Source: an uncultured Gammaproteobacteria bacterium
Lineage (GTDB): Bacteria; Patescibacteriota; Microgenomatia; UBA10105; UBA927
DNA length: 42,969 nucleotides
Direction: 5' to 3'
Assembly: GCA_964630015.1 (NCBI GenBank)
Contig: CAZVTJ010000001.1
Coordinates: 1 to 42,969 of the forward strand
Below, one piece after another: positions 4,274-42,969 of this stretch. Each line of letters begins with the position of its first letter. The stretch's first letter is position 1. A model generated the notes under the pieces. It ran no database searches. It worked only from the letters and a program-made list of their open reading frames with translations, and had not been told where the DNA came from. The position numbers and the translations under genes were made by a program.

Positions 4274-4283
4274 AGGAGGATCT

Positions 4284-7533: not shown

Positions 7534-7677
7534 TCCCTATGATCCTGCCTAACCTCTACAGTATCAATCGTATTCATTACGGGGACGGATGGTGATTATT
7601 CCCTCCATGCAGGCAGTGCGGTTTACCGTATATCACGGTCTTGCGTGTTTGGGAAAAAATCTCCATACTGGGTATAT

Positions 7678-9960: not shown

Positions 9961-9967
9961 ACGAGGT

Positions 9968-26667: not shown

Positions 26668-26714
26668 ATGTTAAAAAATGAGCCTGCCCCCCGTAGCTTA
26701 CGTGAAGGGGGGTT

Positions 26715-26734
26715 ATTCCCGCGAAGGCGGGAAT
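26715..26734 (+). terminator. Perfect 8-bp hairpin ATTCCCGC-GAAG-GCGGGAAT after the SBP gene (no U-tract)
   Basis: Read directly from the sequence. It is preceded by a second G/C hairpin CCCCCC...GGGGGG (26687-26712). Confidence 0.35.
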
Positions 26735-26752
26735 CCATTCTCCAATTCTTCC

Positions 26753-26782
26753 TTGCACAAATTCTTCAGTTTATTGCATACT
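26753..26782 (+). promoter_or_regulatory. Putative RuBisCO promoter (TTGCAC-18 nt-CATACT) followed by RBS AAGGAGG
   Basis: Hexamers at 26753-26758 and 26777-26782. AAGGAGG lies at 26797-26803, 4 nt before ATG 26808. Confidence 0.35.
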
Positions 26783-26807
26783 GGAAACAGGGAATAAAGG
26801 AGGCACT

Positions 26808-28196
26808 ATGGCAGTTCAACTTGATTATTTTGCACCGGAGGGGTGGAAACCGGAAAATGCGGATGAACGCTATATTATTGTCCAATTCAAAATAGAACTT
26901 GCCGACTCCGTCGACCCGTCGCGTTTCCGTGATGCGGCAGCCTCCGTCGCATCCGAATCTTCAACGGGCACCTGGACAACCGTCGAATCCGGACCGGGTT
27001 CAGGGATGGAAATGGCGGAAAAATATAAAGGTTTGGTGTTTGATGTCGACGAACCCAGGAAAATGTTTAAGGTTGCCTATATTGCGGAGCTGTTTGAACC
27101 CGATAATATGTCCGGATTTCTTGCCGGCCCGGTCGGCAACATCGGCGGGATGAAGATGCTCAAAGGTCTTCGGATCATCGATATCAGATTTCCCAAACCA
27201 ATGGTCACGGCATTTCCCGGACCGCAATTTGGCATTGACGGCGTACGGGATCTTCTGGCTCAGTCGGATGAAGACAGAACCATGCCGATTATGGGAACCG
27301 TTGCCAAACCGAAAGTGGGAAGAACGGCAGCGGAACAGGCACTCCTTGCCAAACGGCTTTTAACTGCGGGCAACGGAACATATAACTTCATAAAGGATGA
27401 CGAAAACCTGACCAGTCTTCCGTTTTCCAAGTTTGAAGACCGGTGCGACGCCGTTTTGGATGCACTCAGGGAAGCCGAACAAACCACCGGAAAAAAGAAA
27501 CTCTATTTATGCAATGTTACCCATTCCTCAATCGATACGATGCTCAACCGCGCACATCGAATTAAGGACCATGGTGGAATCTGTATGATGATGGACGTGG
27601 TTGTGACGGGATTTGCTGCACTTCATTCCATGCGCCTTAAAAACCCCGGACTTGCAATCCACGCACATCGGGCGATGCATGCATTCATTACGCGCGACAG
27701 CGGAAGTGGTATTGGAGGGGACGGATCATTATCCGGTTTCTCCGTATCCATGGTTGTACTTGCAAAAATATACCGCATGCTCGGTGTCGATTCTCTCCAC
27801 TCCGGCTCTCCGAAAGCAAAGATGGAAGATTACGGGGAAAGCGAAGTAATTGCTGATCTATTGATGACCGATTCGACAAAACCCAATGACCGGTTCCATA
27901 CGCTTGGACAGGAATGGTTCGGGATGAAAAAGGTATGGCCGGTTGCATCCGGCGGCCTTCATCCTGGCGTCTTGGATAGGGTATACGAAAAGTTTGGACC
28001 CAATTGCTATATCCAGTTCGGTGGTGGCGTTCTGGGGCATCCCAAGGGGGCAGCGCGTGGTGTGGAAGCGGCAATAGAAGCAAGGACGTGTTGTGTTGCC
28101 CATATTCCGATTCTCCAATATACGAAAGACCATCCGGAAAGCGCTCTCGCAGAGGCAGTAACTCTCTGGGGAACGGAACCCAAAATTGTTTATTGA
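26808..28196 (+). CDS. rbcL: Ribulose-1,5-bisphosphate carboxylase large subunit, form II/III- or III-like
   Basis: Motifs GTWTTV, KPKVG, FIKDDENL (carbamylated Lys context), HAHRAMHA, SGGLHPG and FGGGVLGHP are all present. 462 aa. No small-subunit gene adjacent. Confidence 0.9.
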   Translation: MAVQLDYFAPEGWKPENADERYIIVQFKIELADSVDPSRFRDAAASVASESSTGTWTTVESGPGSGMEMAEKYKGLVFDVDEPRKMFKVAYIAELFEPDNMSGFLAGPVGNIGGMKMLKGLRIIDIRFPKPMVTAFPGPQFGIDGVRDLLAQSDEDRTMPIMGTVAKPKVGRTAAEQALLAKRLLTAGNGTYNFIKDDENLTSLPFSKFEDRCDAVLDALREAEQTTGKKKLYLCNVTHSSIDTMLNRAHRIKDHGGICMMMDVVVTGFAALHSMRLKNPGLAIHAHRAMHAFITRDSGSGIGGDGSLSGFSVSMVVLAKIYRMLGVDSLHSGSPKAKMEDYGESEVIADLLMTDSTKPNDRFHTLGQEWFGMKKVWPVASGGLHPGVLDRVYEKFGPNCYIQFGGGVLGHPKGAARGVEAAIEARTCCVAHIPILQYTKDHPESALAEAVTLWGTEPKIVY

Positions 28197-29224
28197 TCGT
28201 GCGGACCGGATAATAAATATGCTTCTTCCAGGAAGCGCCAAGCGACAAGAAGCTGTGCGAATGTAATTGAAGGTATAGCTGTTGAACCAGCAATAAATGA
28301 CACCATATCTTCGGGAAATATGCCCGTGCATTCGAAAATGTGGTTTATCAGTGCTTCTATTGCTTTTTTAGGAAAAAACCCATCAAGCGTTACGGTATTG
28401 CACTCTTTACCCCAATACCGCGACGGTACGACGGAAAGAAGGAATGCCTCATGATACTTGCCGATAATGGCGGAAAGATTTAAGGGTAGGGAAATATCGG
28501 GAAGCGGTGTTTTTGCTGTCGCACAGATAAGTTCGATGTTATGTAAGTCGGAAATATCCGGACCCATATATTCGTACCGTGCATATTGGGATAATTTGGA
28601 CGGATGAATCTTAATTACGACATTGGCAATCGTTTTTTGGTAATCGATATAGCGTTTAAATAACATCTCCCGTTCAAGCATTTCCTTACGCAGAGTATCA
28701 CTTTGATGTTTTCGCGCTTCCACATCACGTTTATATTTCCATTTGAATTTTACATCACGGTCCGGATCGACAAATATAGAAAAATCAATGGAGGGAAGAA
28801 GCTGATCATACAGGGCATGAAGTCCCTCAAGAAGAATTACCGGTGTCGGTTCAATAGTTCTGTCGGGTCCGAAGTCGCCACTCTTATGATTATAAGTAGG
28901 AATGGCAACAGCTTCACCCTGCTTTAACTTTTCAAGATGCATAGACAGAAGTTCCAGTCTGTTGTATGTCGGATCAAGGGGAAAATGCCCACTGATTGCC
29001 CGTTGGGAACGGTTTTCACTGTGATATCCATCCATTTCTATCGTCGTGACGATTGACGGTCCGAGAATTTTCCTGATACCGTCACTGTAAGTCGTTTTTC
29101 CCGATCCGCTATCACCGGCAATAGCAACGATAACAGGCGTATTCTGGAATACGAACCGTGACCGGAGCCTGTTGCATGCATGATGCGATACAAGGGGAGA
29201 TGAAGCGGGCAGTGCAGTATCCAT
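28190..29224 (-). CDS. prk: Phosphoribulokinase-like kinase (PRK/uridine kinase family)
   Basis: P-loop IAGDSGSGKTT, then DGYH, PTYNHKSGDF, LLEGLHALYD, IDFSIFVD and VKFKWKYKRDV in PRK-like order. At 344 aa it is much longer than Udk. RBS-like AAGGA 4 nt before the ATG. Confidence 0.7.
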   Translation of the reverse strand: MDTALPASSPLVSHHACNRLRSRFVFQNTPVIVAIAGDSGSGKTTYSDGIRKILGPSIVTTIEMDGYHSENRSQRAISGHFPLDPTYNRLELLSMHLEKLKQGEAVAIPTYNHKSGDFGPDRTIEPTPVILLEGLHALYDQLLPSIDFSIFVDPDRDVKFKWKYKRDVEARKHQSDTLRKEMLEREMLFKRYIDYQKTIANVVIKIHPSKLSQYARYEYMGPDISDLHNIELICATAKTPLPDISLPLNLSAIIGKYHEAFLLSVVPSRYWGKECNTVTLDGFFPKKAIEALINHIFECTGIFPEDMVSFIAGSTAIPSITFAQLLVAWRFLEEAYLLSGPHDQ

Positions 29225-29238
29225 AAGTCCTTATCTTA

Positions 29239-29267
29239 AGACTAGGGCCAGACAGTATTGCTGTCAA
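29239..29267 (-). promoter_or_regulatory. Possible PRK promoter (TTGACA-17 nt-TAGTCT)
   Basis: Complement of 29262-29267 and 29239-29244. Only 14 nt lie between the -10 and the ATG. Confidence 0.25.
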
Positions 29268-29492: not shown

Positions 29493-29494
29493 AG

Positions 29495-29567
29495 CTGCCG
29501 GGCTAGGATTCGGACCTAGAGTCGCGCTGATCCAAAGTCAGGCGTGTTACCATTACACTACCCGGCA
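29495..29567 (-). tRNA. tRNA-Gln(TTG)
   Basis: Manual fold: TGCCGGG TA GTGT AATGGTA ACAC G CCTGA CTTTGGA TCAGC GCGACT CTAGG TCCGAAT CCTAG CCCGGCA G. There is a C27-C43 mismatch and the T loop has C at position 55. Confidence 0.8.
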
Positions 29568-29680
29568 TTACTCATGGGAAAAAAACGCAGTTTCTATCCC
29601 AACGATTCTTCCTACCAACGTGTCGCAAAGGGCTTTAATATTAAAGCGGGGCTTTGCGGTATGAAGGTAAATAAAATATG

Positions 29681-29752
29681 AGCGGCGGAGGGGACTCGAA
29701 CCCCCGACATTCTCCTTGGCAAGGAGGCATTCTACCACTGAATTACCGCCGC
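29681..29752 (-). tRNA. tRNA-Gly(GCC)
   Basis: Manual fold: GCGGCGG TA ATTC AGTGGTA GAAT G CCTCC TTGCCAA GGAGA ATGTC GGGGG TTCGAGT CCCCT CCGCCGC T. Confidence 0.9.
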
Positions 29753-29841
29753 AATACAATCTAAAACATTATTTATGAACAAATAATGTCTTCACTTGTA
29801 AATATTAATATTTTATTTTCAGCACCATTATTTTTGTATGG

Positions 29842-29914
29842 TGCCGAGACTAGGAATTGCACCCAGATTACGTGTTTTTCAGACACGCGCCTTGACTACC
29901 TCGGCCATCTCGGC
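29842..29914 (-). tRNA. tRNA-Phe(GAA), atypical D arm and T loop
   Basis: Manual fold: GCCGAGA TG GCC GAGGTAGTCAA GGC G CGTGT CTGAAAA ACACG TAAT CTGGG TGCAATT CCTAG TCTCGGC A. Confidence 0.7.
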
Positions 29915-29977
29915 TCATTATCAAAGAACGATTTTTCTATTTTACAATACCAGTAATATTTGTACCAGATTACTTTG

Positions 29978-30051
29978 TAGCCACTAAGGGACTCGAACCC
30001 CTGACCTTCTCTGTGTAAAAGAGACGCTCTAACCAACTGAGCTAAGTGGCC
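29978..30051 (-). tRNA. tRNA-Val(TAC)
   Basis: Manual fold: GGCCACT TA GCTC AGTTGGTTA GAGC G TCTCT TTTACAC AGAGA AGGTC AGGGG TTCGAGT CCCTT AGTGGCT A. Confidence 0.9.
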
Positions 30052-31826: not shown

Positions 31827-31908
31827 GCGGACGTGGCGGAATTGGTATACGCGCATGCCTAAGGAGCATGTCCCGCAAGGGGTGGAGGTTCAAGTCCTCT
31901 CGTCCGCA
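31827..31908 (+). tRNA. tRNA-Leu(AAG)
   Basis: Manual fold: GCGGACG TG GCG GAATTGGTATA CGC G CATGC CTAAGGA GCATG TCCCGCAAGGGGT GGAGG TTCAAGT CCTCT CGTCCGC A. The anticodon stem has 5 perfect bp, so the AAG assignment is unambiguous by hand. Confidence 0.85.
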
Positions 31909-32085
31909 CAAGCTCAATGAGCGCAGTCACGTTAGACGTGACAACAAATATTTGTATTAATATTTAGGCTTCTATACAGTGATTTCTCTGCAGTAGTAAT
32001 GCACTACGCCGGTTAGTAGATCGCAAACTGCTAACAGTCAAGTTTATGTAATGCTGAGCATGTCGAAGCATCCTCTCGATGGTAT

Positions 32086-33705
32086 TCAATTCCACTTCAT
32101 TTGAACTTCCTGTTGGGGATCCGGTTCATATAAAACAATCTGGCTTTCAAATGGGGAAAGACGGAGAAATAACCCATCAATTCTTTGTTCATCAGGCTGT
32201 ATCCATGCTCCCTGTTTTAAACTATAGATTGCTGCATTTTGTCCATATCGGACACATGGGATACTGCAATCCTCTGTTGCATTGCCCAAATTTATACAGA
32301 CTACCCCGGACATTTGTCCATCGGAAGACGTAACATGAAGGGCAATAAGTCCAGGTGAATATGTATGAATATCAGCAATAGTCCATTTACCTTCGGAGAA
32401 AAGATGTGAGTTCTTAAAAAAGAGCACATCGGAATAAAACCGACGATGCTCAAAATCAATATGTTCATCCGGAAACCGACGTATCTGCATTGGTGGACGT
32501 ATTTTCCATCCGTCTTCCTGTCCTTGGTTGACCAATAAAAGGGTATTTGGCAGAAATGCAATTGTTGCAAATGCAGCTTTGGATGCTTCTATTCCCATAG
32601 CACTAGCAGCACGCTCTTCATCATGATTTTCAGTATATACGCATTCGCTATACACCCCGGTATTTTGAAGCGCTTTTCCGATATATTCCCGAAGGTTTTG
32701 TGTCCATCCATGATGTACCGTATCATTGAGAACTTTGAATGCATCATGTGCATATAAATAATCAAAAGATTGTAACTGATCCTCTTCCCAATATACTTCA
32801 CCTAAAAACGTAAATTCTCTCCCTTGTTCTTTGGCTTTTTTCTTCGCTTTTGCAACTACTGTTTCCCAAAAATTATGGGTTAAAATGTATGTTTTTTCTT
32901 CTTCTGAGAGTAAGTATCCCCAAGTCCGTAAAAAGGTGGAGGCATTTACGAGCATTGTCATATCGCACCTTACCCCATCAGCATGATCAACCAACTCTAA
33001 AAGTTGACGTTCCATTTCCTGTTGGACGTCGGAACGGGCATAATTAAGTTGAAGTGTGTCTGCCCATTCGTCGGAACCCGAATATCTTCCATGGGCAACA
33101 TAATATGTATTTCCGTCTTTGGCTACAATCGGGATATACATATTAGGATTTTGCTCGTACTGTTCTTTCAAACCTTGGATAAAATACTCAGGATGTTCAA
33201 AAACCAATGTACTATCCACAGCAGTATGATTTGGTACAAAATCTATCATGACTTTTTTTCCTCGTTCATGAAGATGGGATACTGCTTTGTCCCAATGATT
33301 CCAATCGGAAGCAATTGAAGGATTGGGAATATATTCGGGTATTGCAAATGGGCTTGCTACTACATCATGTTCCGGGTCTAAATCGGGAAGAGCATATCGA
33401 TATTGATACTCATATTTTTTGGCATGATTCCGGCTGAAACTACTTCCTTTATATATCCCCATAAACCAAATTGTGTCGTACTGTCCAGCCAGGGCATCCC
33501 ATTCTTCTTCCGGTACTTCATCAATAGAAATATGTTTTCCGTACTTCTGCTCAAGTCCAAACAACCAGAGTCGGGTGTTTACCAGTTTTACACTATGCTG
33601 ATTCCCAAATTCAACAGATGGTTGAAGATATTCCCCAATATGACGGTGAAAAAGATAATTTTGTTGTTCTACTGATATTTCCGGTAATGCAAATTCAGTA
33701 AGCAT
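32086..33705 (-). CDS. Glycoside hydrolase family 13 (alpha-amylase superfamily) protein
   Basis: The four GH13 regions are present: VMIDFVPNHTAVDS, DGVRCDMTML, FLGEVYWEE, YTENHDEERA. 539 aa. No obvious signal peptide. Confidence 0.75.
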   Translation of the reverse strand: MLTEFALPEISVEQQNYLFHRHIGEYLQPSVEFGNQHSVKLVNTRLWLFGLEQKYGKHISIDEVPEEEWDALAGQYDTIWFMGIYKGSSFSRNHAKKYEYQYRYALPDLDPEHDVVASPFAIPEYIPNPSIASDWNHWDKAVSHLHERGKKVMIDFVPNHTAVDSTLVFEHPEYFIQGLKEQYEQNPNMYIPIVAKDGNTYYVAHGRYSGSDEWADTLQLNYARSDVQQEMERQLLELVDHADGVRCDMTMLVNASTFLRTWGYLLSEEEKTYILTHNFWETVVAKAKKKAKEQGREFTFLGEVYWEEDQLQSFDYLYAHDAFKVLNDTVHHGWTQNLREYIGKALQNTGVYSECVYTENHDEERAASAMGIEASKAAFATIAFLPNTLLLVNQGQEDGWKIRPPMQIRRFPDEHIDFEHRRFYSDVLFFKNSHLFSEGKWTIADIHTYSPGLIALHVTSSDGQMSGVVCINLGNATEDCSIPCVRYGQNAAIYSLKQGAWIQPDEQRIDGLFLRLSPFESQIVLYEPDPQQEVQMKWN

Positions 33706-33827
33706 ACAATATATACGGGTAATAAATTCGGAAAAATGAACTCCATTTCATCATAACGGAATTGTGTTCCTCTTTCAGTATGCAGCAAAAATATGTATTG
33801 AAGAAAAATACTGTATGGATATTTTTG

Positions 33828-33913
33828 TGCCCGAGGGGAGACTCGAACTCCCAAGACTTGTTACGGTCACTAGCTCCTGAAGCTAGCGCGTCTACCAATT
33901 CCGCCACCCGGGC
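33828..33913 (-). tRNA. tRNA-Leu(CAG)
   Basis: Manual fold: GCCCGGG TG GCG GAATTGGTAGA CGC G CTAGC TTCAGGA GCTAG TGACCGTAACAAGTCTT GGGAG TTCGAGT CTCCC CTCGGGC A. Confidence 0.9.
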
Positions 33914-33923
33914 ATATCCAAAA

Positions 33924-33932
33924 ATTATACCA
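33924..33932 (-). promoter_or_regulatory. Extended -10 (TGGTATAAT) 10 nt upstream of tRNA-Leu(CAG)
   Basis: The complement of 33924-33932 reads TGGTATAAT. Confidence 0.4.
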
Positions 33933-33961
33933 TAAAAAATCCCGTTTTTATCGGCTATACT

Positions 33962-34948
33962 ATGTATATGGCAAAACATGAAGATCTGCTTCCCCAAAAA
34001 CTATGCGAACGGCTGTTGTTGCTGTACGGAACAAAGGAATACCGTTCACTTCTTAAAACCATATCACATTCACTTCCCACCACACTTCGCCGTAACCCAA
34101 ATGGTAGTGCTTCAGATCGGTTTGATCAGGCATTGGCAACGAGTGGAATCATGACAACTGTCGTAGCGTGGTATCCGGACGCCCGCATCGTTAACACGGA
34201 AAATACAACACAATCCATCGGAAAAACGGATGGATTCCAACAAGGGGTATTTTATGTCCAAAGCCTTTCCAGCATGATCCCACCGCTTGTTCTGGACCCG
34301 CAACCCGGCGAAAAAATTCTTGATCTGTGTGCCTCTCCGGGAAGCAAAACAACCCAACTTGCAGGGCTGATCCGAAATAACGGGGAAATCGTCGCAAACG
34401 ATGTCAGCTATATCCGCACGCTCAAACTCAAGGCAAATGTCCGTATCCAGAACGCTACGTGCGTAACGTGCACGAATCTTCCCGGCGAAAAACTGTGGAC
34501 CATTTATCCGGAATATTTTGACAAAACGCTTGTCGATGTCCCGTGTTCCATGGAAGGAACGATCCGTCTGGATAATCCAAAAACGTATGAATATTGGTCC
34601 GAAAAGAAGGTGAAGGAGCTTGCCAAAAAACAACGTTGGTTACTCCGATCGGCTATTTCCGCAACTAAACCCGGCGGAACGATAGTCTATTCTACCTGCA
34701 CAATTTCCCCTGAAGAAAATGAGGAAGTTATCGATTGGATTTGTCAAAAAGAAAAAGGAAATATTATGCTTGAAAAAATTCATATTCCCGGCCTCGAAAC
34801 ACAACCCGGGATCGTTTCTTGGAAAAATCACTCCTATATTCCGGGAGTCCAATCATGCATCCGTATCCGAAGCAGTGACGTAATGGAAGGCTTTTTTGTC
34901 GCAAAAATCAAAAAAATCCGATCTACGGTTCACGGTTCATTCGAGTAA
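33962..34948 (+). CDS. NOL1/NOP2/Sun-family RNA (rRNA) cytosine-C5 methyltransferase
   Basis: SAM motif ILDLCASPGSKTTQL and catalytic Cys motifs DVPCSMEG and VYSTCTISPEENE. An alternative ATG lies at 33968. Confidence 0.75.
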   Translation: MYMAKHEDLLPQKLCERLLLLYGTKEYRSLLKTISHSLPTTLRRNPNGSASDRFDQALATSGIMTTVVAWYPDARIVNTENTTQSIGKTDGFQQGVFYVQSLSSMIPPLVLDPQPGEKILDLCASPGSKTTQLAGLIRNNGEIVANDVSYIRTLKLKANVRIQNATCVTCTNLPGEKLWTIYPEYFDKTLVDVPCSMEGTIRLDNPKTYEYWSEKKVKELAKKQRWLLRSAISATKPGGTIVYSTCTISPEENEEVIDWICQKEKGNIMLEKIHIPGLETQPGIVSWKNHSYIPGVQSCIRIRSSDVMEGFFVAKIKKIRSTVHGSFE

Positions 34949-35989
34949 ACCAAGATGCAGGTGATTTTCGATAATCTGAAGCACAAACTCTTCAAGGGAA
35001 ATTCCGGATGCCTCAAGCGATGCCGTCATGGAATCATCGCTTGCCTCACTGATTCCGGGATTTCCGTTACCCTCAAGAAAAAACCATTGTTTTGTTTTTG
35101 GGTTATACCGGATATCAAACCGCGCATAATCGCGGAATCCGAATGCATAAAAGGCACAAATACATTGCCGCTGGATTGTCCGGAGAATCGATACCGAAAT
35201 TCCTTTTGCAGGTGCAAAGAAATGAAGATTTTTGTATATCGTTCCATTCTTCTTCCACTTTTCGTCAAACCCGTATATATTCCACTTATTATTTTTGACG
35301 TTCTGAACGATCATTTCCGATACGGGAAGGGCACGTGTCATCCCGTCACTTTCTAATACGGTTACCTGTAATTCGCGACCGCGGATAAACCGTTCACAGA
35401 TAAGCGACTGTTTTAAGGTTGTCCGTATTCTCTTCACCCGTTTCTTAAACTGCATAAATGACGTCACAACGGATTTTGAGGTTATTCCTACGCTTCCGTG
35501 TTCAAATGCCGGTTTTACCATCACGGGAAATTTCGAAGGCAAAAGACTCCGCAGTAATTTGTCTTTCGGTCCGATAACCGAAAATTCCGGAGTCGGCAGA
35601 TTGTGGAGTTTGAATATTGCTTTTGTTTTAACCTTGCTGTCGCTTGCAGATAATGCAAGAAATCCCGATCCTGAATAGGGAATATGCATACGCTCAAGTA
35701 TTCGGGCGATTTTGAGTTCCATCTGTTTGCTGTCCACCAGATTGAAAATGAAATCGCTTTTGATATCGGCAATAGGGGAAAGATCATCAAGTTCAAGTGC
35801 AATAACGGATACTCGGAATTTTCTCCTCTTCAATAACTTTTCCACGCACTGTACCGTTTTTTCCGTATCATCGTCGATGACGGTATTTTGTCTTGAATAA
35901 TATAAATCGGAAGATTCAAGCGGAACCCGATGATAAATAATTGCTATCCGAGGTCGTTTCGGACTTTTTTTCTTTTGCTTCATTGACAA
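34937..35989 (-). CDS. ATP-grasp protein of the D-alanine--D-alanine ligase family
   Basis: Motifs FPVMVKPAFEHGSVGITS and YARFDIRYNPKTKQWFFLEGNGNPGI (Ddl-like C-terminal Mg/ATP site). The basic N-terminus is atypical for Ddl. The 3' end overlaps the methyltransferase gene by 12 nt. Confidence 0.55.
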   Translation of the reverse strand: MSMKQKKKSPKRPRIAIIYHRVPLESSDLYYSRQNTVIDDDTEKTVQCVEKLLKRRKFRVSVIALELDDLSPIADIKSDFIFNLVDSKQMELKIARILERMHIPYSGSGFLALSASDSKVKTKAIFKLHNLPTPEFSVIGPKDKLLRSLLPSKFPVMVKPAFEHGSVGITSKSVVTSFMQFKKRVKRIRTTLKQSLICERFIRGRELQVTVLESDGMTRALPVSEMIVQNVKNNKWNIYGFDEKWKKNGTIYKNLHFFAPAKGISVSILRTIQRQCICAFYAFGFRDYARFDIRYNPKTKQWFFLEGNGNPGISEASDDSMTASLEASGISLEEFVLQIIENHLHLGLLE

Positions 35990-36076
35990 TGCATAGTTGG
36001 GCAGAACATATCACGAATATATCAAGCATACAGTATGGAACGATAAAATCAAATGCGTTAAAATAGGGAAGTCATT

Positions 36077-36162
36077 GCCGCGGTGGCGGAATCGGTAGAC
36101 GCCCAGGACTTAAAATCCTGTGACTTTCACCAGTCGTGTGGGTTCGAGTCCCACCCGCGGCA
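36077..36162 (+). tRNA. tRNA-Leu(TAA)
   Basis: Manual fold: GCCGCGG TG GCG GAATCGGTAGA CGC C CAGGA CTTAAAA TCCTG TGACTTTCACCAGTCGT GTGGG TTCGAGT CCCAC CCGCGGC A. Confidence 0.9.
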
Positions 36163-36172
36163 CTTAAAATGT

Positions 36173-37195
36173 ATGGCACAAACCTTTCCCCTTATAGAAG
36201 TTACCGGATCGCATACCGATATTGGCCATGCAATCGGTGAAACATTCAAAACAAAAATCCAGGATGTCATCAATCAAAAACGTACGATTATAGCAGAATA
36301 CGATCGGGTTCTCTCAACGATAGATACGTTTATATCCATAACCAAGAAGGCATTTCCGAACTTGATCCATGAACTTCAGGCAGTTGCTGATGCGGCTGAT
36401 GTTCCGTTTCGGGAATTGTTTTTCCGCAACATCGGCGCCCTTACCGATCCGGAAACGGCAATGAGTCGTGAGGAATCCGAAACCGTCGATCACTGCACGA
36501 CGATCGTATCGTGGGAAAGCGCGGGACATCCGATCGTCGGCCATAATGAGGATTGGGATATCGCAAGCATCGACGAGCTGTATATTCTTAAAGTAAAACT
36601 TCCCCATGTATCGTTTATCAGCCTCAATTACGCGACATTTTTACCCGGAGTTTCTGCAGGAATGAATTCGCATGGCATTATCCAATGCATTAATGAAATA
36701 CCCCAAACGCGTATTAACGGCATACCGAAAAATTTTATCGCTCGCGCAATGCTGGAATGCAAGATGCTTTCCGAATGCGAACGGATTGCACTGCGTACCA
36801 AACACTCCTCGGGATATAACCATGTACTTCTGCAGGGCAACAACGGCCGGGACTTGGAAATCGGAGGGCGATCCGTAGACATCCAGTCGTTTGATTACCT
36901 TCCGTATGTCCATACGAACCACTATCTCTCAAATCACCTCAAACAATACGAAATCCACACACAGTCCCATCAGGAGAATTCACATGCACGTTATGAACGC
37001 GTGAAGGAGCTTCTGCGCCTCCCGATGGATTTTTCCGATATACAGGCAATTTTATCCGATCATACAAACGAAAAATATCCGATTTGCCGCCACAAGGAAA
37101 CCATTGCGTCCGTTATCATCGAACCATCTGAAAATCTCTTCCATGTCTGTTATGGACTCCCGTGCACCGGAACATACGTACCATACCGTCTGTAA
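36173..37195 (+). CDS. Peptidase C45 / acyl-CoA:6-APA acyltransferase-like Ntn-hydrolase
   Basis: N-terminus LIEVTGSHTDIGHAIGE, putative nucleophile context VDHCTTIVSWE, then NEDW. Start trimmed from ORF 36083, which reads through the tRNA, to ATG 36173. Confidence 0.55.
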   Translation: MAQTFPLIEVTGSHTDIGHAIGETFKTKIQDVINQKRTIIAEYDRVLSTIDTFISITKKAFPNLIHELQAVADAADVPFRELFFRNIGALTDPETAMSREESETVDHCTTIVSWESAGHPIVGHNEDWDIASIDELYILKVKLPHVSFISLNYATFLPGVSAGMNSHGIIQCINEIPQTRINGIPKNFIARAMLECKMLSECERIALRTKHSSGYNHVLLQGNNGRDLEIGGRSVDIQSFDYLPYVHTNHYLSNHLKQYEIHTQSHQENSHARYERVKELLRLPMDFSDIQAILSDHTNEKYPICRHKETIASVIIEPSENLFHVCYGLPCTGTYVPYRL

Positions 37196-37199
37196 TTTC

Positions 37200-37207
37200 T
37201 GTATAAT
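37200..37207 (+). promoter_or_regulatory. TG-TATAAT -10 element 17 nt upstream of tRNA-Pro
   Basis: TGTATAATAC at 37200-37209. The same decamer recurs at 38823-38832. Confidence 0.4.
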
Positions 37208-37224
37208 ACTTTTTGTATGGATTT

Positions 37225-37297
37225 CGGAGAGTGGCGCAGTTGGTAGCGCGCATCGTTTGGGACGATGAGGTCGCGGGTTCGAGTCCCGCCTCTCCGA
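37225..37297 (+). tRNA. tRNA-Pro(TGG)
   Basis: Manual fold: CGGAGAG TG GCGC AGTTGGTA GCGC G CATCG TTTGGGA CGATG AGGTC GCGGG TTCGAGT CCCGC CTCTCCG A. Confidence 0.9.
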
Positions 37298-37309
37298 CAG
37301 GATTTTTCT

Positions 37310-38353
37310 ATGACACTTCATGACTACCACACATCGATTCGGTCGAACGTTTCCTCTCATCTGCTTTCGTATGCCCCAACCATTCCGACACTTCTTCTGC
37401 ATGATTCATCCCTTGCATCCATCATCACCACAGCCTTGATTGATGATTCCCTGAATGGAAAAATGAACAGATCGCTGCTGTGTTTTCTTGCCTATGACGG
37501 GTACACTGCCAAAAAAAATCCGCTTATCCTGGATATTGCTTCCGCTTTGGAAATAACCCATACGGCATACCTTATTCAGGATGATGTTATGGACAATGAC
37601 AGCACACGACGGGGGAAAGATGCACTATTTGTCCAGCTAAAAAAACAATACGGATCACACTATGGCAGTGATGAACAACTCTATAAATATCTTGCTATCT
37701 GCATCGGCGATGCAGGATTCCACTTTGCTAACTATTGTCTCTCCAGCGTACCGGAGCAGATACGAAAAACAGTAAACGAAGTATTTTTCCAAACGGATTG
37801 TGGGCAATATGAAGACCTGCTCAATTCCCGTTCCCAATCAATACCGGATGAGGCAATCATTGAGTCTGTCTATATACAAAAAACCGGAAAGTACACCATC
37901 GGTCTTCCAATACAATGCGGAATGTTACTTGCCGGCGCACCGGAGGAAGATATACAAACAATGGAACGTATTGCGGATATTCTTGGTCTTATCTACCAAA
38001 TAACTGATGATGAACTTAATCTATTGGGAGATCCGAAAAAAACTGGGAAACCAACCGCTTCAGATATTACGGAAGGGAAAAAAACCATCCACATGCTTCG
38101 ATTACTGAACGTTATGCAAAAACAAGATGCCGAAAAAATACGAACAATTTTTCAAAAAAATAATAAAAATCAAAACGATTGTCATATAATTATTGAAGCT
38201 ATGCATACCCATAAAATCTTCTCTCTGCTTCGGAAAGAAAATGAACAGCGATACAAAACGGCAATATCCCTTCTTCAAATGGTTCACATGAATCCGGAAT
38301 ACATAAAACTAGTACAGGAATTTACTCAAAGTCTTTTATCTAGGGCAGCGTAA
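37310..38353 (+). CDS. Polyprenyl diphosphate synthase (trans-isoprenyl, FPP/GGPP-type)
   Basis: First Asp-rich motif LIQDDVMDND and second Asp-rich motif YQITDDELNLLGD. Start trimmed from ORF 37265, which overlaps tRNA-Pro, to ATG 37310. Confidence 0.8.
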   Translation: MTLHDYHTSIRSNVSSHLLSYAPTIPTLLLHDSSLASIITTALIDDSLNGKMNRSLLCFLAYDGYTAKKNPLILDIASALEITHTAYLIQDDVMDNDSTRRGKDALFVQLKKQYGSHYGSDEQLYKYLAICIGDAGFHFANYCLSSVPEQIRKTVNEVFFQTDCGQYEDLLNSRSQSIPDEAIIESVYIQKTGKYTIGLPIQCGMLLAGAPEEDIQTMERIADILGLIYQITDDELNLLGDPKKTGKPTASDITEGKKTIHMLRLLNVMQKQDAEKIRTIFQKNNKNQNDCHIIIEAMHTHKIFSLLRKENEQRYKTAISLLQMVHMNPEYIKLVQEFTQSLLSRAA

Positions 38354-38354
38354 T

Positions 38355-38804
38355 ATGAAACGAAGAAGTAGTCCTATCTGGGTCTATGCAGTTGTATTAT
38401 TTATCGTAATAGCAATGGGCTATGTCTCATACAAAAATATGAGGCCGAAAATCCAATTCAACACAGCGTCCTACGAAATTGAACTTGCACTTACGGATCA
38501 GGAAAAAAAGAAGGGACTTTCAAACCGTGATTCCATGCCACAGGGTCACGGAATGTTATTTGTGTATCCCGTTGCGGAAAAATATGATTTTTGGATGAAA
38601 GATATGCGTTTTCCCTTGGACTTCATTTGGCTGCGCGATAAAACCGTTGTTGATATTACTCCAAATGTACAGCCCGAATCAGGACCGGAATACACACTCT
38701 ATCATCCTAGCTCACCAGCCAATATGATTTTGGAATTACACGCGGGGGAAGCGGCAAAAGCGGGGATTGTCATCGGTCAACAGGCAGTCATACGTTTCAA
38801 GTAG
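38355..38804 (+). CDS. DUF192-family protein with N-terminal membrane anchor
   Basis: Motif KGLSNRDSMPQGHGMLFVYP...FWMKDMRFPLDFIWL is typical of DUF192. Confidence 0.65.
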   Translation: MKRRSSPIWVYAVVLFIVIAMGYVSYKNMRPKIQFNTASYEIELALTDQEKKKGLSNRDSMPQGHGMLFVYPVAEKYDFWMKDMRFPLDFIWLRDKTVVDITPNVQPESGPEYTLYHPSSPANMILELHAGEAAKAGIVIGQQAVIRFK

Positions 38805-38822
38805 CGTGACAAAAAAAATCTT

Positions 38823-38830
38823 TGTATAAT
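38823..38830 (+). promoter_or_regulatory. TG-TATAAT -10 element 16 nt upstream of tRNA-Gly(TCC)
   Basis: TTTGTATAATAC at 38821-38832. Confidence 0.4.
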
Positions 38831-38846
38831 ACAAAAGTTGATTCAA

Positions 38847-38918
38847 GCGGCGGTAGTTCAGTGGTAGAATATCTGTTTTCCAAACAGAGGGTCACGGGTT
38901 CAAGTCCCGTCCGCCGCT
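38847..38918 (+). tRNA. tRNA-Gly(TCC)
   Basis: Manual fold: GCGGCGG TA GTTC AGTGGTA GAAT A TCTGT TTTCCAA ACAGA GGGTC ACGGG TTCAAGT CCCGT CCGCCGC T. Confidence 0.9.
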
Positions 38919-38957
38919 CATATACGGGGAGAGGTCAATTCACACCAGTAAAAAGTT

Positions 38958-39031
38958 GCCTCCGTAGCTCAATTGGATAGAGCAACTTCCTTCTAAGAAG
39001 TAGGTTGTGAGTTCGATTCTCACCGGAGGTA
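38958..39031 (+). tRNA. tRNA-Arg(TCT)
   Basis: Manual fold: GCCTCCG TA GCTC AATTGGATA GAGC A ACTTC CTTCTAA GAAGT AGGTT GTGAG TTCGATT CTCAC CGGAGGT A (G1-U72 wobble). Confidence 0.85.
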
Positions 39032-39032
39032 C

Positions 39033-40754: not shown

Positions 40755-40780
40755 TAATCCTGCGCTGCACCCCCGAAACA

Positions 40781-40789
40781 TGATATACT
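40781..40789 (+). promoter_or_regulatory. Extended -10 (TGATATACT) 12 nt upstream of tRNA-His
   Basis: Read directly from the sequence. Confidence 0.4.
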
Positions 40790-40801
40790 TTGTACCATCA
40801 T

Positions 40802-40877
40802 GGTGGCTGTAGCTCAGCAGTAGAGCGCCTGCCTGTGGAGCAGGAGGTTGCGGGGGCGGCACCCGTCAGCCACCCCA
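40802..40877 (+). tRNA. tRNA-His(GTG) with encoded G-1 and CCA; non-canonical D and T loops
   Basis: Manual fold: G GTGGCTG TA GCTC AGCAGTA GAGC G CCTGC CTGTGGA GCAGG AGGTT GCGGG GGCGGCA CCCGT CAGCCAC C CCA. Confidence 0.75.
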
Positions 40878-40906
40878 AAAGAGCTGGTGAAGAAAGCAAT
40901 GATTCT

Positions 40907-42619: not shown

Positions 42620-42631
42620 CCGCTTCTTTCC

Positions 42632-42661
42632 TTGTCCTACCGGTAAAAAATGCGATACAAT
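42632..42661 (+). promoter_or_regulatory. Putative promoter (TTGTCC-18 nt-TACAAT) 11 nt upstream of tRNA-Arg(TCG)
   Basis: Hexamers at 42632-42637 and 42656-42661. Confidence 0.35.
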
Positions 42662-42672
42662 AAACCAAGTTT

Positions 42673-42745
42673 GCGCCCGTAGCTTAATGGATAGAGCGTC
42701 TGTCTTCGGAACAGCAGGTTGGAGGTTCAACTCCTCCCGGGCGCA
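42673..42745 (+). tRNA. tRNA-Arg(TCG)
   Basis: Manual fold: GCGCCCG TA GCTT AATGGATA GAGC G TCTGT CTTCGGA ACAGC AGGTT GGAGG TTCAACT CCTCC CGGGCGC A (27-43 mismatch). Confidence 0.85.
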
Positions 42746-42747
42746 CA

Positions 42748-42756
42748 TGTTATAAT
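42748..42756 (+). promoter_or_regulatory. Consensus extended -10 (TGTTATAAT) 13 nt upstream of the tRNA-Lys-like element
   Basis: Read directly from the sequence. The spacing to the element matches that seen for the real tRNAs in this window (10-17 nt). Confidence 0.45.
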
Positions 42757-42769
42757 CTGCAGGTATTTC

Positions 42770-42883
42770 GGGCGTGTAGCCTTTGCCCGCCGAAGCTGAG
42801 TTTGACTCGGCGAAGGAGGGTCAACGGTAGATCTCGCTTCCGCCAGCTGACGGATGGTGGACTCTTAAGCAATCTACACGCTT
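42770..42883 (+). ncRNA. tRNA-Lys-derived chimeric structured RNA candidate (unclassified)
   Basis: Three blocks (11+11+12 nt) are 100% identical to tRNA-Lys(CTT) positions 1-22 and 31-42. They are separated by 40-nt and 30-nt unrelated GC-rich blocks. The 3' end CTACACGC pairs with GCGTGTAG at the 5' end. It has its own -10 element. Confidence 0.45.
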
Positions 42884-42898
42884 TGAAATTAACAATCA

Positions 42899-42969
42899 GG
42901 GCGTGTAGCTCAACGGTAGAGCAATTGCCTCTTAAGCAATCGGTTCCGGGTTCGAATCCCGGCGCGCTC
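42899..42969 (+). tRNA. tRNA-Lys(CTT), truncated by the window end (discriminator missing)
   Basis: Manual fold: GGGCGTG TA GCTC AACGGTA GAGC A ATTGC CTCTTAA GCAAT CGGTT CCGGG TTCGAAT CCCGG CGCGCTC. Confidence 0.85.

What the first reader, a model, noticed from the sequence alone, without database searches (positions are those of the whole stretch)
26715..29267. Catalytically intact form II/III-like RuBisCO tail-to-tail with a phosphoribulokinase-like gene (7-nt convergent overlap)
Seen: the 462-aa RuBisCO large subunit keeps every catalytic motif I can check by eye (KPKVG, FIKDDENL, HAHRAMHA, SGGLHPG, FGGGVLGHP), so it is not an RLP/form IV. There is no small-subunit gene. The opposite-strand 344-aa gene has the PRK/uridine-kinase P-loop IAGDSGSGKTT, followed by DGYH, YNHKSGDF, EGLHALYD, IDFSIFVD and KFKWKYKRD. 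This order and protein length fit phosphoribulokinase rather than the ~210-aa Udk. The stop codons interlock (TGA 28194-28196; TAA on the complement of 28190-28192), leaving no space for terminators. Established knowledge: RuBisCOs of this type in CPR bacteria and archaea are generally placed in an AMP/nucleoside salvage route fed by AMP phosphorylase and ribose-1,5-bisphosphate isomerase. Neither gene is in this window, whereas a PRK would supply RuBP directly from Ru5P. Inference: a PRK-RuBisCO shunt could turn pentose phosphate plus CO2 into 3-PGA. That product would feed the eno, ppsA and ADP-forming ACS genes at 7.7-13.4 kb.
Basis: partly seen in the sequence, partly recalled or inferred. 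Interest (0 to 1): 0.65.

Follow-up and report, generated by a model that had tools for sequence, protein, structure and literature searches.

The report
Linked RuBisCO and phosphoribulokinase in a CPR bacterium
A small uncultivated (Microgenomates-group) bacterium carries an intact "form III-like" RuBisCO tail-to-tail with an archaeal-type phosphoribulokinase; this enzyme pair was already reported for related bacteria in 2019, and what is added here is that the two genes are physically linked in several lineages.

Summary
A 462-aa RuBisCO large subunit (26808-28196, +) and a 344-aa phosphoribulokinase (28190-29224, -) converge, and their stop codons overlap by 7 nt.

The RuBisCO keeps all 19 canonical active-site residues. 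It is not form II/III. It belongs to the CPR "form III-like" clade: 68% identity to sequences named that way, about 40% to archaeal form III, 31% to form II/III, plus a clade-specific 11-aa insertion.

The kinase passes NCBI's PRK model but not the uridine-kinase model. It keeps every Ru5P/ATP-binding residue mapped in the M. hungatei and Chlamydomonas PRK structures. Its predicted fold matches M. hungatei PRK over its full length (TM 0.82/0.91).

Both genes are under strong purifying selection. The convergent pairing recurs in 9 of 11 sampled CPR-type PRK lineages, often with a phosphoglycolate-phosphatase-like HAD gene.

The most likely function is a PRK-RuBisCO shunt: Ru5P + ATP + CO2 gives two 3-PGA, which enter lower glycolysis. 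Jaffe et al. 2019 already reported PRK in Gottesmanbacteria with form III-like RuBisCO and proposed this role.

This is therefore a new member of a known kind. Whether the shunt replaces the AMP pathway cannot be judged from one contig. The overlap itself shows no sign of a special function.

The parts
26808..28196 (+). RuBisCO large subunit, CPR 'form III-like' type, 462 aa, catalytically intact
   Evidence: ORF. Pfam RuBisCO_large_N plus RuBisCO_large. Best NCBIfam models are form III TIGR03326 (375 bits) and PRK04208 (376 bits), both below their cutoffs. Best PDB matches are form IIIB structures 8DHT and 1GEH, E about 1e-81. 68% identity to proteins named 'Form III-like' and to Gottesmanbacteria RuBisCO. 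All 19 active-site positions are kept: E50 T55 W56 N111 K167 K169 K196 D198 E199 H287 R288 H291 H331 K338 M339 S381 G383 G405 G406. dN/dS 0.034 against L001.
27708..27740 (+). Clade-specific 11-aa insertion (GIGGDGSLSGF, residues 301-311) between strands beta5 and beta6 of the barrel
   Evidence: Present in the form III-like homologues aligned (shorter in three of them). Absent from T. kodakarensis form III, the L040 form III, the form II/III proteins and the RLPs. PMC13454268 describes a beta-sheet-forming insertion shared by the form III-like lineage, which is probably this one.
28190..29224 (-). Phosphoribulokinase, archaeal-type (non-redox-regulated), 344 aa
   Evidence: ORF. PF00485. NCBIfam PRK model NF005655 246.5 bits, above its cutoff of 236; udk models 98 and 83 bits, far below their cutoffs of 180 and 220. 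Full-length match to M. hungatei PRK 5B3F, E 1e-43. P-loop 37-45 and D65 H68 R72 R75 Y111 H113 E133 K163 R166 D167 R171 are invariant across 34 homologues. AlphaFold model pLDDT 88.7; the top 19 Foldseek PDB hits are all PRKs, 5B3F with TM 0.82/0.91, while uridine kinases cover only the N-terminal ~190 residues. dN/dS 0.014 against L001.
28190..28196 (.). 7-nt convergent overlap of the two stop codons
   Evidence: Sequence TTATTGA. Also 7 nt in L001, 4 nt in L089, 2-nt gap in L172. Other lineages have 27 nt to about 0.9 kb, or a HAD gene, between the two genes. No RNA structure above shuffled controls (z -0.07 and -0.15) and no inverted repeat spanning the junction.
26797..26803 (+). Shine-Dalgarno AAGGAGG, 4 nt before the RuBisCO ATG
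   Evidence: Read directly from the sequence.
29228..29267 (-). PRK 5' region: exact TTGACA hexamer (29267-29262), 17-nt spacer, weak -10 TAGTCT, and AAGGA ribosome-binding site (29232-29228)
   Evidence: Read directly from the sequence. The consensus scan did not find promoter-like sites above chance in this region (4 found against 6.5 expected), so this is only a candidate.

Best explanation
The two genes form a functional two-enzyme module in a Microgenomates-group (CPR/Patescibacteria) bacterium. An archaeal-type phosphoribulokinase phosphorylates ribulose-5-phosphate to ribulose-1,5-bisphosphate. A homo-oligomeric form III-like RuBisCO with no small subunit then carboxylates it to two 3-phosphoglycerate. 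The 3-PGA enters lower glycolysis (enolase, PEP/pyruvate interconversion) and acetate-forming, ATP-yielding fermentation; genes for these steps lie 15-19 kb upstream on the same contig. The module acts as a heterotrophic, CO2-incorporating pentose shunt that bypasses the GAPDH step. It is not a complete autotrophic Calvin cycle. It probably works beside, not necessarily instead of, the AMP/nucleoside route that feeds RuBisCO in other CPR bacteria. Shown here: gene identities, intact catalytic residues, the PRK fold, purifying selection and conserved convergent linkage. Inferred: substrate specificity, direction of flux and physiological role. The 7-nt stop-codon overlap is a by-product of genome compaction in this lineage, possibly after loss of an intervening HAD phosphatase gene, and is not a regulatory device.
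For: RuBisCO: the domains, all 19 active-site residues and the clade-specific insertion are present, and the nearest named relatives are form III-like or Gottesmanbacteria enzymes. PRK: it passes the curated PRK cutoff but not the udk cutoff. It aligns full-length to the biochemically verified M. hungatei PRK (activity reported in PMC5241800). Its residues correspond to MhPRK H55/R59/R62/Y98/H100/K151/R154 and to CrPRK R64/R67/Y103/H105/R159/D160/R164, and all are invariant in the alignment. The predicted fold matches PRKs over both domains. Linkage: a convergent PRK-RuBisCO pair occurs in the window lineage (L001, L090), L089, L003, L007, L093, L170, L171, L172 and L174, which is 9 lineages whose RbcL is 66-86% identical to the window's. 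It is unlinked in 2 lineages, L004-6 and L173. L170 shares the window's flanking synteny (SBP_5, CofD, holin-like, UvrC, transglutaminase) at 41-66% protein identity, so the locus was inherited vertically. Selection against L001: dN/dS is 0.034 for RbcL and 0.014 for PRK, compared with 0.065-0.072 for the neighbouring genes. Downstream enzymes are present in the window. No deoA or e2b2 lies in the window or in the flanks of the related loci. Jaffe et al. 2019 (PMC6389311) proposed the same role for PRK in Gottesmanbacteria.
Against: No enzyme activity has been measured for any CPR PRK. Form III-like RuBisCO has only limited biochemical data; a Kerfeldbacteria enzyme was purified in PMC13454268. 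No source of Ru5P (rpiA/B, rpe, tkt, tal, zwf/gnd) and no phosphoglycerate mutase is visible in the 43-kb window. Many CPR bacteria with form III-like RuBisCO have no PRK and use deoA/e2b2 (PMC5113843, PMC6389311), so RuBisCO does not depend on PRK. Gammaproteobacterial members of the same PRK clade sit next to RuBisCO-like proteins that cannot carboxylate RuBP, so the kinase's substrate may vary within the clade. dS values of 1-2 are close to saturation, which makes the dN/dS figures approximate.
Confidence: 0.7

Rival explanations
1. The RuBisCO works mainly in the AMP/nucleoside (pentose bisphosphate) salvage pathway fed by AMP phosphorylase and R15P isomerase encoded elsewhere in the genome. 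The PRK is a minor auxiliary supplier of RuBP, or is functionally unrelated.
For: Form III-like RuBisCO in CPR genomes is generally accompanied by deoA and e2b2 (PMC5113843, PMC6389311). Most form III-like lineages (Dojkabacteria, Parcubacteria, Kerfeldbacteria) have no reported PRK (PMC6389311). A PNP_UDP_1 nucleoside phosphorylase sits next to the RuBisCO in L171. PRK is unlinked from RuBisCO in two lineages.
Against: The convergent PRK-RuBisCO pair is kept in 9 of 11 sampled lineages. No deoA or e2b2 lies within the window or the flanks of any related locus, whereas form III-c loci cluster with those genes. PRK is the most strongly constrained gene in the neighbourhood. This explanation is not exclusive of the best one, since both routes end in RuBP.
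Confidence: 0.2
2. The pair is part of a complete CO2-fixing cycle, either Calvin-Benson-like or of the reductive hexulose-phosphate type, that gives the organism autotrophic or mixotrophic growth.
For: Jaffe et al. found near-complete CBB gene sets, lacking only SBPase, in some PRK-bearing Gottesmanbacteria. M. hungatei uses a homologous PRK with form III RuBisCO in the RHP pathway (PMC5241800). The window encodes an IMPase/FBPase-family protein, a PGI/PMI and a PGM/PMM. A phosphoglycolate-phosphatase-like HAD accompanies the pair in relatives, as cbbZ does in cbb operons.
Against: No GAPDH, PGK, transketolase, aldolase, RPI/RPE or HPS/PHI is seen in the window. CPR bacteria are small-genome fermenters with no known source of the ATP and reductant a fixation cycle needs; this rests on established knowledge and was not tested here. 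Jaffe et al. themselves regard a functioning cycle as uncertain.
Confidence: 0.07
3. The kinase is not a phosphoribulokinase in vivo. It phosphorylates another substrate (a nucleoside or a different ketose phosphate), and its adjacency to RuBisCO reflects some other shared pathway.
For: PF00485 also contains uridine kinases. Gammaproteobacterial relatives that are 40-47% identical are paired with non-carboxylating RLPs. No member of the bacterial branch of this clade has been assayed.
Against: The protein scores above the PRK cutoff and far below the udk cutoffs. It has the full two-domain PRK fold. Every residue implicated in binding the Ru5P phosphate and in catalysis is invariant. Its partner is a bona fide RuBisCO, whose only known substrate is the PRK product.
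Confidence: 0.05
4. The interlocked stop codons are a regulatory feature: convergent transcription gives antisense interference or mutually exclusive expression of the two genes.
For: There is no room for a terminator between the genes. Overlaps or near-overlaps also occur in L001, L089 and L172.
Against: The overlap is not conserved beyond close relatives; other lineages have 27 nt to about 0.9 kb, or a whole gene, between the pair. There is no RNA structure above shuffled controls, no inverted repeat across the junction, and terminator-like sites are at the chance level. Mutually exclusive expression would defeat a two-step pathway.
Confidence: 0.03

Closest known systems
PRK plus form III-like / III-c RuBisCO in Candidatus Gottesmanbacteria (Jaffe, Castelle, Dupont & Banfield 2019, Mol Biol Evol; PMC6389311)
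   Same: The same RuBisCO clade: 67-68% identity to Gottesmanbacteria form III-like enzymes. The same PRK clade: 46% identity to the Gottesmanbacteria RIFCSPLOWO2_01_FULL_40_10 PRK, nested among archaeal-type and divergent cyanobacterial PRKs. The same host group: UvrB's best named hits are Gottesmanbacteria, Microgenomates and Woesebacteria at 63-65%. The same proposed role, PRK supplying RuBP to a non-CBB RuBisCO.
   Different: The window's PRK, with its three nearest relatives, sits on a long separate branch in my unsupported NJ tree. The host is only about 65% identical in UvrB to any named genome. The paper's text does not mention PRK-RuBisCO adjacency, which I find in 9 of 11 lineages. 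In the one published Gottesmanbacteria genome I examined the two genes are not linked.
Archaeal PRK plus form III RuBisCO of the reductive hexulose-phosphate pathway, Methanospirillum hungatei (Kono et al. 2017; PMC5241800; PDB 5B3F)
   Same: The best sequence and structure match for the kinase: E 1e-43, TM 0.82/0.91. The same Ru5P/ATP-binding residues. No redox-regulatory cysteine pair. Partnered with a small-subunit-free RuBisCO of the form III lineage.
   Different: Only 31% identity. The host is bacterial. The RuBisCO is form III-like, not III-a/b. No HPS/PHI or other RHP genes are visible. The M. hungatei paper text searched mentions no operon or adjacency.
AMP / pentose-bisphosphate pathway RuBisCO of Thermococcus kodakarensis and CPR bacteria (Sato 2007; Aono 2015; Wrighton 2016, PMC5113843)
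   Same: The RuBisCO lineage (39% identity to Tk-RuBisCO, all catalytic residues shared). The heterotrophic role of making 3-PGA from a pentose skeleton plus CO2.
   Different: There RuBP comes from AMP phosphorylase plus R15P isomerase. Here a PRK is the physically linked supplier, and neither AMP-pathway gene lies in the window or in the flanks of related loci.
Classical cbb operons (cbbL/M, cbbP, cbbZ) of autotrophic bacteria
   Same: RuBisCO and PRK are co-located. In related loci (L007, L170, L174) a COG0546 phosphoglycolate-phosphatase-like HAD sits between them, recalling cbbZ.
   Different: The genes are convergent, not co-transcribed. There is no small subunit, no cbbR, and no FBPase/TKT/aldolase/GAPDH genes in the cluster. 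The PRK is of the archaeal type, and the RuBisCO is neither form I nor form II.

Membership tests
Bona fide (carboxylating) RuBisCO large subunit | RuBisCO_large_N and RuBisCO_large catalytic domains | tested here: met
   PF02788 E 7e-26 and PF00016 E 2e-63.
Bona fide (carboxylating) RuBisCO large subunit | Canonical active-site and RuBP-binding residues (spinach E60 T65 W66 N123 K175 K177 K201 D203 E204 H294 R295 H298 H327 K334 L335 S379 G381 G403 G404) | tested here: met
   All are present. L335 is Met, as it also is in the form III and form II/III sequences aligned.
Bona fide (carboxylating) RuBisCO large subunit | RuBP carboxylase activity | not testable with these tools
   Needs a recombinant enzyme assay.
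CPR 'form III-like' RuBisCO (Wrighton 2016) | Clusters with the named form III-like sequences rather than with form III-a/b/c, II/III, I or II | tested here: met
   68% identity to two proteins named 'RuBisCO long chain, Form III-like'. 60-68% to Gottesmanbacteria, Kerfeldbacteria, Dojkabacteria and Parcubacteria enzymes. 39-41% to form III and 30-31% to form II/III. No full ML tree with form I and II references was built.
CPR 'form III-like' RuBisCO (Wrighton 2016) | Clade-specific insertion of about 10-11 aa after the TR(E/D)SG motif, between beta5 and beta6 | tested here: met
   Residues 301-311. Shared by the form III-like homologues aligned (shorter in three of them) and absent from forms III, II/III and IV.
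   NF010002 scores 218 bits against a cutoff of 489, whereas the true II/III protein of L043 scores 623. The motif is KDDENL. Identity is 30-31%.
Form IV RuBisCO-like protein | Substitutions at catalytic positions (K177, E204, R295, H298, H327, K334, S379) | tested here: not met
   None is substituted in the window protein. The gammaproteobacterial RLPs in the same alignment are substituted at all seven.
Phosphoribulokinase, archaeal/cyanobacterial-type (NCBIfam NF005655) | Scores above the curated family cutoff | tested here: met
   246.5 bits against a cutoff of 236, aligned over residues 28-334.
Phosphoribulokinase, archaeal/cyanobacterial-type (NCBIfam NF005655) | P-loop plus the Ru5P/ATP-binding and catalytic residues (MhPRK H55 R59 Y98 H100 K151 R154; CrPRK R64 Y103 H105 R159 D160 R164; RsPRK D42) | tested here: met
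   Window residues D65 H68 R72 R75 Y111 H113 K163 R166 D167 R171 are all invariant in 34 homologues. The residue lists come from PMC5241800 and 10.1101/422709.
Phosphoribulokinase, archaeal/cyanobacterial-type (NCBIfam NF005655) | Two-domain PRK fold, including the C-terminal domain that uridine kinases lack | tested here: met
   AF2 model pLDDT 88.7. 5B3F gives TMq 0.82 and TMt 0.91 over 322 columns. The top 19 hits are PRKs. Uridine kinases align to only about 190 residues, TMq 0.45.
Phosphoribulokinase, archaeal/cyanobacterial-type (NCBIfam NF005655) | ATP-dependent phosphorylation of Ru5P | not testable with these tools
   Needs an enzyme assay. No CPR PRK has been assayed, according to PMC6389311.
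Photosynthetic (thioredoxin-regulated) PRK | Regulatory Cys pair (P-loop Cys16 and Cys55 in CrPRK) | tested here: not met
   The P-loop is GDSGSGKT and the strand preceding DGYH is TIEM; there is no cysteine at either position.
Uridine/cytidine kinase (Udk) | Scores above the udk equivalog cutoff; length of about 210 aa | tested here: not met
   NF004018 97.6 bits against a cutoff of 180; TIGR00235 82.7 against 220. The protein has 344 aa and a C-terminal domain.
AMP / pentose-bisphosphate pathway (deoA + e2b2 + RuBisCO) | AMP phosphorylase and R15P isomerase genes present | tested here: inconclusive
   Absent from all large ORFs of the 43-kb window and from the flanks of L003, L007, L170-L172 and L174. 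The rest of the genome is unseen.
Calvin-Benson-Bassham or RHP cycle | PGK, GAPDH, TPI, aldolase, FBPase/SBPase, transketolase, RPI and RPE (or HPS/PHI) in addition to PRK and RuBisCO | not testable with these tools
   Only an IMPase/FBPase-family protein, PGI/PMI and PGM/PMM are in the window. A genome-wide inventory was not possible.

The most novel reading that the evidence does not exclude
In a subclade of Microgenomates, PRK, a phosphoglycolate-phosphatase-like HAD and form III-like RuBisCO form a vertically inherited, self-contained 'mini-cbb' module. The HAD has been lost in the window's lineage, which brought the two remaining genes into overlap. This module has replaced the AMP-phosphorylase/R15P-isomerase route and lets these fermenters turn pentose phosphates plus CO2 into 3-PGA without a GAPDH step, as a natural counterpart of the engineered PRK-RuBisCO redox shunt. 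If the HAD really is a phosphoglycolate phosphatase, the RuBisCO would meet O2 in vivo.
Probability: 0.2. Interest if true: 0.55.

Novelty: new member of a known kind. Interest (0 to 1): 0.3.

Why it matters
RuBisCO in CPR bacteria is normally read as a nucleotide-salvage enzyme. A PRK that is physically linked to it, vertically inherited and strongly constrained is better genomic support than mere co-occurrence for the published but untested idea that some CPR bacteria feed RuBisCO from pentose phosphates. That would widen the substrates these very abundant groundwater and sediment fermenters can convert to ATP and acetate while incorporating CO2. It also gives compact gene pairs (window, L001, L089, L172, L174) that could be cloned for the first biochemical test of a CPR PRK. 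The gain over Jaffe et al. 2019 is incremental: linkage, orientation, the recurring HAD partner, and a divergent new lineage.

Tried and rejected
1. **Terminator or regulatory structure at the overlap.** The consensus scan found terminator-like sites at the chance level (5 against 4.1 expected). RNA folds of both strands across the junction were no better than shuffles (z -0.07 and -0.15). No inverted repeat spans the junction. Rejected.

2. **HAD phosphatase in the window.** tblastn with the four HAD proteins from related loci found nothing below E 0.1 in the window.

3. **Broad synteny surveys.** They returned mostly archaeal, cyanobacterial and gammaproteobacterial PRKs, with only 1 and 3 CPR loci respectively. 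The linked/unlinked tally (9 against 2 lineages) therefore rests on a small, non-random sample assembled mainly from encoding-contig look-ups.

4. **Literature on the 'cyanobacteria-specific PRK' structures (9QKN/9QKO/9QKP).** No paper is in the library.

5. **Taxonomy.** UvrB gives only 62-66% identity to any named CPR genome, including Gottesmanbacteria, Microgenomates and Woesebacteria. The host cannot be placed below the Microgenomates group.

6. **PRK tree.** The NJ tree has no support values, and the position of the window's long branch may be an artefact. I did not add a Udk outgroup, because the HMM cutoffs and the fold search already separate PRK from Udk.

7. **Separate horizontal acquisition of the PRK.** Considered and rejected. 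Divergence from the syntenic locus L170 (PRK 49%) matches that of the flanking housekeeping genes (UvrC 47%, SBP_5 44%).

Full report
**1. Observation**

The window holds a 462-aa ORF at 26808-28196 (+) and a 344-aa ORF at 28190-29224 (-). The junction reads TTATTGA. TTA at 28190-28192 is the minus-strand TAA and TGA at 28194-28196 is the plus-strand stop, so the two ORFs overlap by 7 nt.

Both genes have good ribosome-binding sites. AAGGAGG lies 4 nt before the RuBisCO ATG, and AAGGA lies before the PRK ATG. An exact TTGACA sits 38 nt upstream of the PRK start.

**2. Host and surroundings**

Pfam annotation of 32 large ORFs gives the following genes:
- metK, rarA, a NUDIX protein and holA;
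- a sugar-phosphate block: PGM/PMM at 4227-5645, an IMPase/FBPase-family protein at 5642-6466, and a bifunctional PGI/PMI at 6463-7533;
- ppsA, eno and an ADP-forming acetyl-CoA synthetase at 7645-13374;
- lexA, uvrB, uvrA and uvrC, CofD and an SBP_bac_5 protein;
- the RuBisCO/PRK pair, four minus-strand tRNA genes, engB, obg and others.

There is no AMP phosphorylase, R15P isomerase, pentose-phosphate-pathway enzyme or RuBisCO small subunit. UvrB is 63-65% identical to Gottesmanbacteria, Microgenomates-group and Woesebacteria proteins, and 92% identical to one unnamed metagenomic protein. The contig therefore comes from a divergent Microgenomates-group CPR bacterium.

**3. The RuBisCO**

The best NCBIfam models are form III (TIGR03326, 375 bits) and PRK04208 (376 bits), both below their cutoffs. 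The form II / II-III model reaches only 218 bits. The best solved structures are form IIIB enzymes, 8DHT and T. kodakarensis 1GEH, at E about 1e-81.

In the 5.8-billion-protein search the nearest named relatives are 'RuBisCO long chain, Form III-like [uncultured bacterium]' (68%) and Gottesmanbacteria (67-68%). Kerfeldbacteria, Parcubacteria and Dojkabacteria follow at 60-63%. Identity is 39-41% to form III, 30-31% to form II/III proteins found here, and 27% to RLPs.

I aligned the protein with 35 clade members, Tk-RuBisCO, one form III, two form II/III proteins and five RLPs. The window protein keeps all 19 canonical catalytic and RuBP-binding positions; L335 is Met, as in the form III and II/III sequences aligned. 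It also carries an 11-aa insertion (residues 301-311) that the form III-like homologues aligned share, though it is shorter in three of them, and that no other form has.

It is therefore a catalytically intact member of the CPR form III-like clade of Wrighton et al. 2016 (PMC5113843). It is neither form II/III nor an RLP.

**4. The kinase**

It scores 246.5 bits against NCBIfam's phosphoribulokinase model NF005655 (cutoff 236). It scores only 98 and 83 bits against the two uridine-kinase equivalogs (cutoffs 180 and 220) and 34 bits against pantothenate kinase. The best solved structure is M. hungatei PRK 5B3F, E 1e-43, aligned over residues 20-343. Cyanobacterial and plant PRKs come next, and uridine kinases are far weaker.

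Kono et al. (PMC5241800) list MhPRK Arg59, Arg62, Tyr98 and His100 as binding the Ru5P phosphate, with His55, Lys151 and Arg154 also involved. Gurrieri et al. (10.1101/422709) list CrPRK Arg64, Arg67, Tyr103, His105, Arg159, Asp160 and Arg164. Through the printed alignments these map to window residues H68, R72, R75, Y111, H113, K163, R166, D167 and R171. D65 corresponds to RsPRK Asp42. All of them are invariant in a 34-sequence alignment of the clade.

The two regulatory cysteines of photosynthetic PRKs are absent. An AlphaFold model has pLDDT 88.7. It superposes on 5B3F with TM 0.82/0.91, the first 19 PDB hits are all PRKs, and uridine kinases cover only the N-terminal ~190 residues.

In an NJ tree without support values, the window's PRK and its three closest relatives form a long branch. 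That branch lies inside the bacterial part of the archaeal-type PRK clade, near the CPR, cyanobacterial and gammaproteobacterial groups.

**5. Is the pairing meaningful?**

I collected loci encoding relatives of the PRK and located RuBisCO in them by tblastn.

| Locus | Arrangement of PRK and RuBisCO |
|---|---|
| L001 (96% PRK), L090 (100% identical ENA contig fragment) | convergent; 7-nt overlap in L001 |
| L089 (80% PRK) | convergent, 4-nt overlap |
| L172 | convergent, 2-nt gap |
| L093 | convergent, about 27 nt apart |
| L003, L171 | convergent, one small ORF between |
| L007, L170, L174 | convergent, a co-oriented HAD_2 hydrolase between |
| L004-6 (Gottesmanbacteria RIFCSPLOWO2_01_FULL_40_10), L173 | unlinked |

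The orientation is convergent in all nine linked lineages, counting the window with L001 and L090 as one.

L170 shares the window's flanking gene order (SBP_5, CofD, holin-like, UvrC, transglutaminase). The protein identities there are UvrC 47%, SBP_5 44%, CofD 66%, PRK 49% and RbcL 70%. This fits vertical inheritance of the whole locus.

Against L001, dN/dS is 0.034 for RbcL and 0.014 for PRK, compared with 0.065-0.072 for two flanking genes. dS is 1-2, close to saturation, so these figures are approximate. Both genes are functional, and they are kept together well beyond chance.

**6. The overlap itself**

Overlap or near-abutment is limited to some lineages. Elsewhere the gap is 27 nt to about 0.9 kb, or holds a gene. 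Terminator-like and promoter-like sites are at chance frequency. The junction RNA folds no better than shuffled sequence, and no inverted repeat spans it.

I read the overlap as compaction, possibly after loss of the HAD gene found between the pair in L007, L170 and L174. No HAD homologue exists in the window.

**7. Mechanism**

Shown: the pair consists of an archaeal-type PRK and a bona fide form III-like RuBisCO, both conserved and linked.

Inferred:
- Ru5P + ATP gives RuBP.
- RuBP + CO2 + H2O gives two 3-PGA.
- 3-PGA passes through a phosphoglycerate mutase that is not in the window, then enolase, to PEP and pyruvate.
- Pyruvate goes to acetyl-CoA and then acetate, with ATP gained at the ADP-forming acetyl-CoA synthetase.

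From established biochemistry, such a shunt avoids the GAPDH step and so yields 3-PGA without forming NADH, which would suit a fermenter. The source of Ru5P is unknown for this genome.

The alternatives are set out as rivals. The AMP pathway may be the main supplier of RuBP; this is compatible with the best explanation and cannot be excluded. A full CBB or RHP cycle is unlikely. A different kinase substrate is also unlikely.

**8. Comparison with what is known**

Jaffe et al. [quoted passage not shown] They placed the Gottesmanbacteria PRKs inside a clade of divergent cyanobacterial and archaeal PRKs. They discussed both a partial CBB cycle and 'PRK providing additional RuBP', and they called for biochemical tests. 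Their text does not mention PRK-RuBisCO adjacency. No other paper in the library combines 'phosphoribulokinase' with 'Gottesmanbacteria'. A form III-like enzyme from Kerfeldbacteria has since been purified (PMC13454268).

The finding is thus a new and fairly divergent member of a known kind. The conserved convergent linkage, and the frequent phosphoglycolate-phosphatase-like HAD partner, are modest new details.

**9. Verdict**

The form label is wrong, replacement of the AMP pathway is unproven, and the idea is already published.
- Confidence that the two genes act together as a PRK-RuBisCO shunt: about 0.7.
- Interest: 0.3.

Noticed in passing
L007:11021-11677, L170:2640-3281, L174:9005-9643; L171:5127-5969, L172:7985-8773, L093:2561-3340: HAD phosphatases recur with the CPR PRK/RuBisCO pair. 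In three lineages a HAD_2 (COG0546) protein sits between PRK and RuBisCO, co-oriented with PRK with 4-nt overlaps or a 3-nt gap; its best NCBIfam and PDB matches are phosphoglycolate phosphatases, below the cutoffs. In three other lineages a Cof-type HAD-IIB flanks the pair; its best specific match is the archaeal phosphoglycolate phosphatase model TIGR01487, also below cutoff. This may be an analogue of cbbZ. No such gene is in the window.
   Followed up: partly
L017, L020 (9983-12231), L022, L023, L028: Gammaproteobacterial members of the same PRK clade (Ectothiorhodospiraceae, Alkalilimnicola, Aquisalimonas and Lysobacteraceae MAGs; 40-47% identical to the window's PRK) lie directly upstream, on the same strand, of a RuBisCO-like protein. 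That protein has K177 missing and E204H, R295P, H298T, H327I, K334R and S379G. Its best model is MtnW-like at 192-204 bits, far below the cutoff of 409. This kinase-RLP pair, of unknown function, suggests that substrate may vary within the PRK clade.
   Followed up: partly
L040:377-2478; L043:8466-10900; L045:2672-5203: Archaeal-type PRK is also adjacent to a canonical form III RuBisCO in 'bacterium isolate S5B7_HD70' (same strand, 26-nt gap). It is adjacent to form II/III RuBisCOs in two uncultured archaea. PRK-RuBisCO linkage is therefore not confined to CPR bacteria.
   Followed up: partly
window 26687-26734: Two hairpins lie just after the SBP_bac_5 stop codon and before the RuBisCO promoter region: C6/G6 arms at 26687-26692 and 26707-26712, and a perfect 8-bp stem ATTCCCGC/GCGGGAAT at 26715-26734. 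No T-run follows, and the terminator scan did not call them. They may separate RuBisCO transcription from the upstream gene.
   Followed up: no
window 29494-30051 and 31827-42969: The contig is rich in tRNA genes, 13 in its last 13.5 kb. Four of them (Val, Phe, Gly, Gln) are on the minus strand directly upstream of the PRK gene, so the PRK could be read through from the tRNA cluster.
   Followed up: no
window 4227-7533: Three overlapping or abutting sugar-phosphate genes look like one operon directly upstream of ppsA-eno-acs: PGM/PMM family, an IMPase/FBPase-family protein (best NCBIfam HisN-like, below cutoff) and a bifunctional PGI/PMI. The PGM/PMM-family enzyme could act as a phosphopentomutase, as in Thermococcus, but this was not tested.
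   Followed up: no
window 39033-40754 and 40790-42619: Two large ORFs (573 and 609 aa) have no Pfam match at E <= 1e-4. A tRNA-His prediction (40803-40877) overlaps the start of the second, so its true start is probably further downstream.
   Followed up: no
L171:9398-10114: A PNP_UDP_1 nucleoside phosphorylase is divergently adjacent to the form III-like RuBisCO in one related locus. This hints at a nucleoside to ribose-1-P to pentose-P feed into the PRK route.
   Followed up: no
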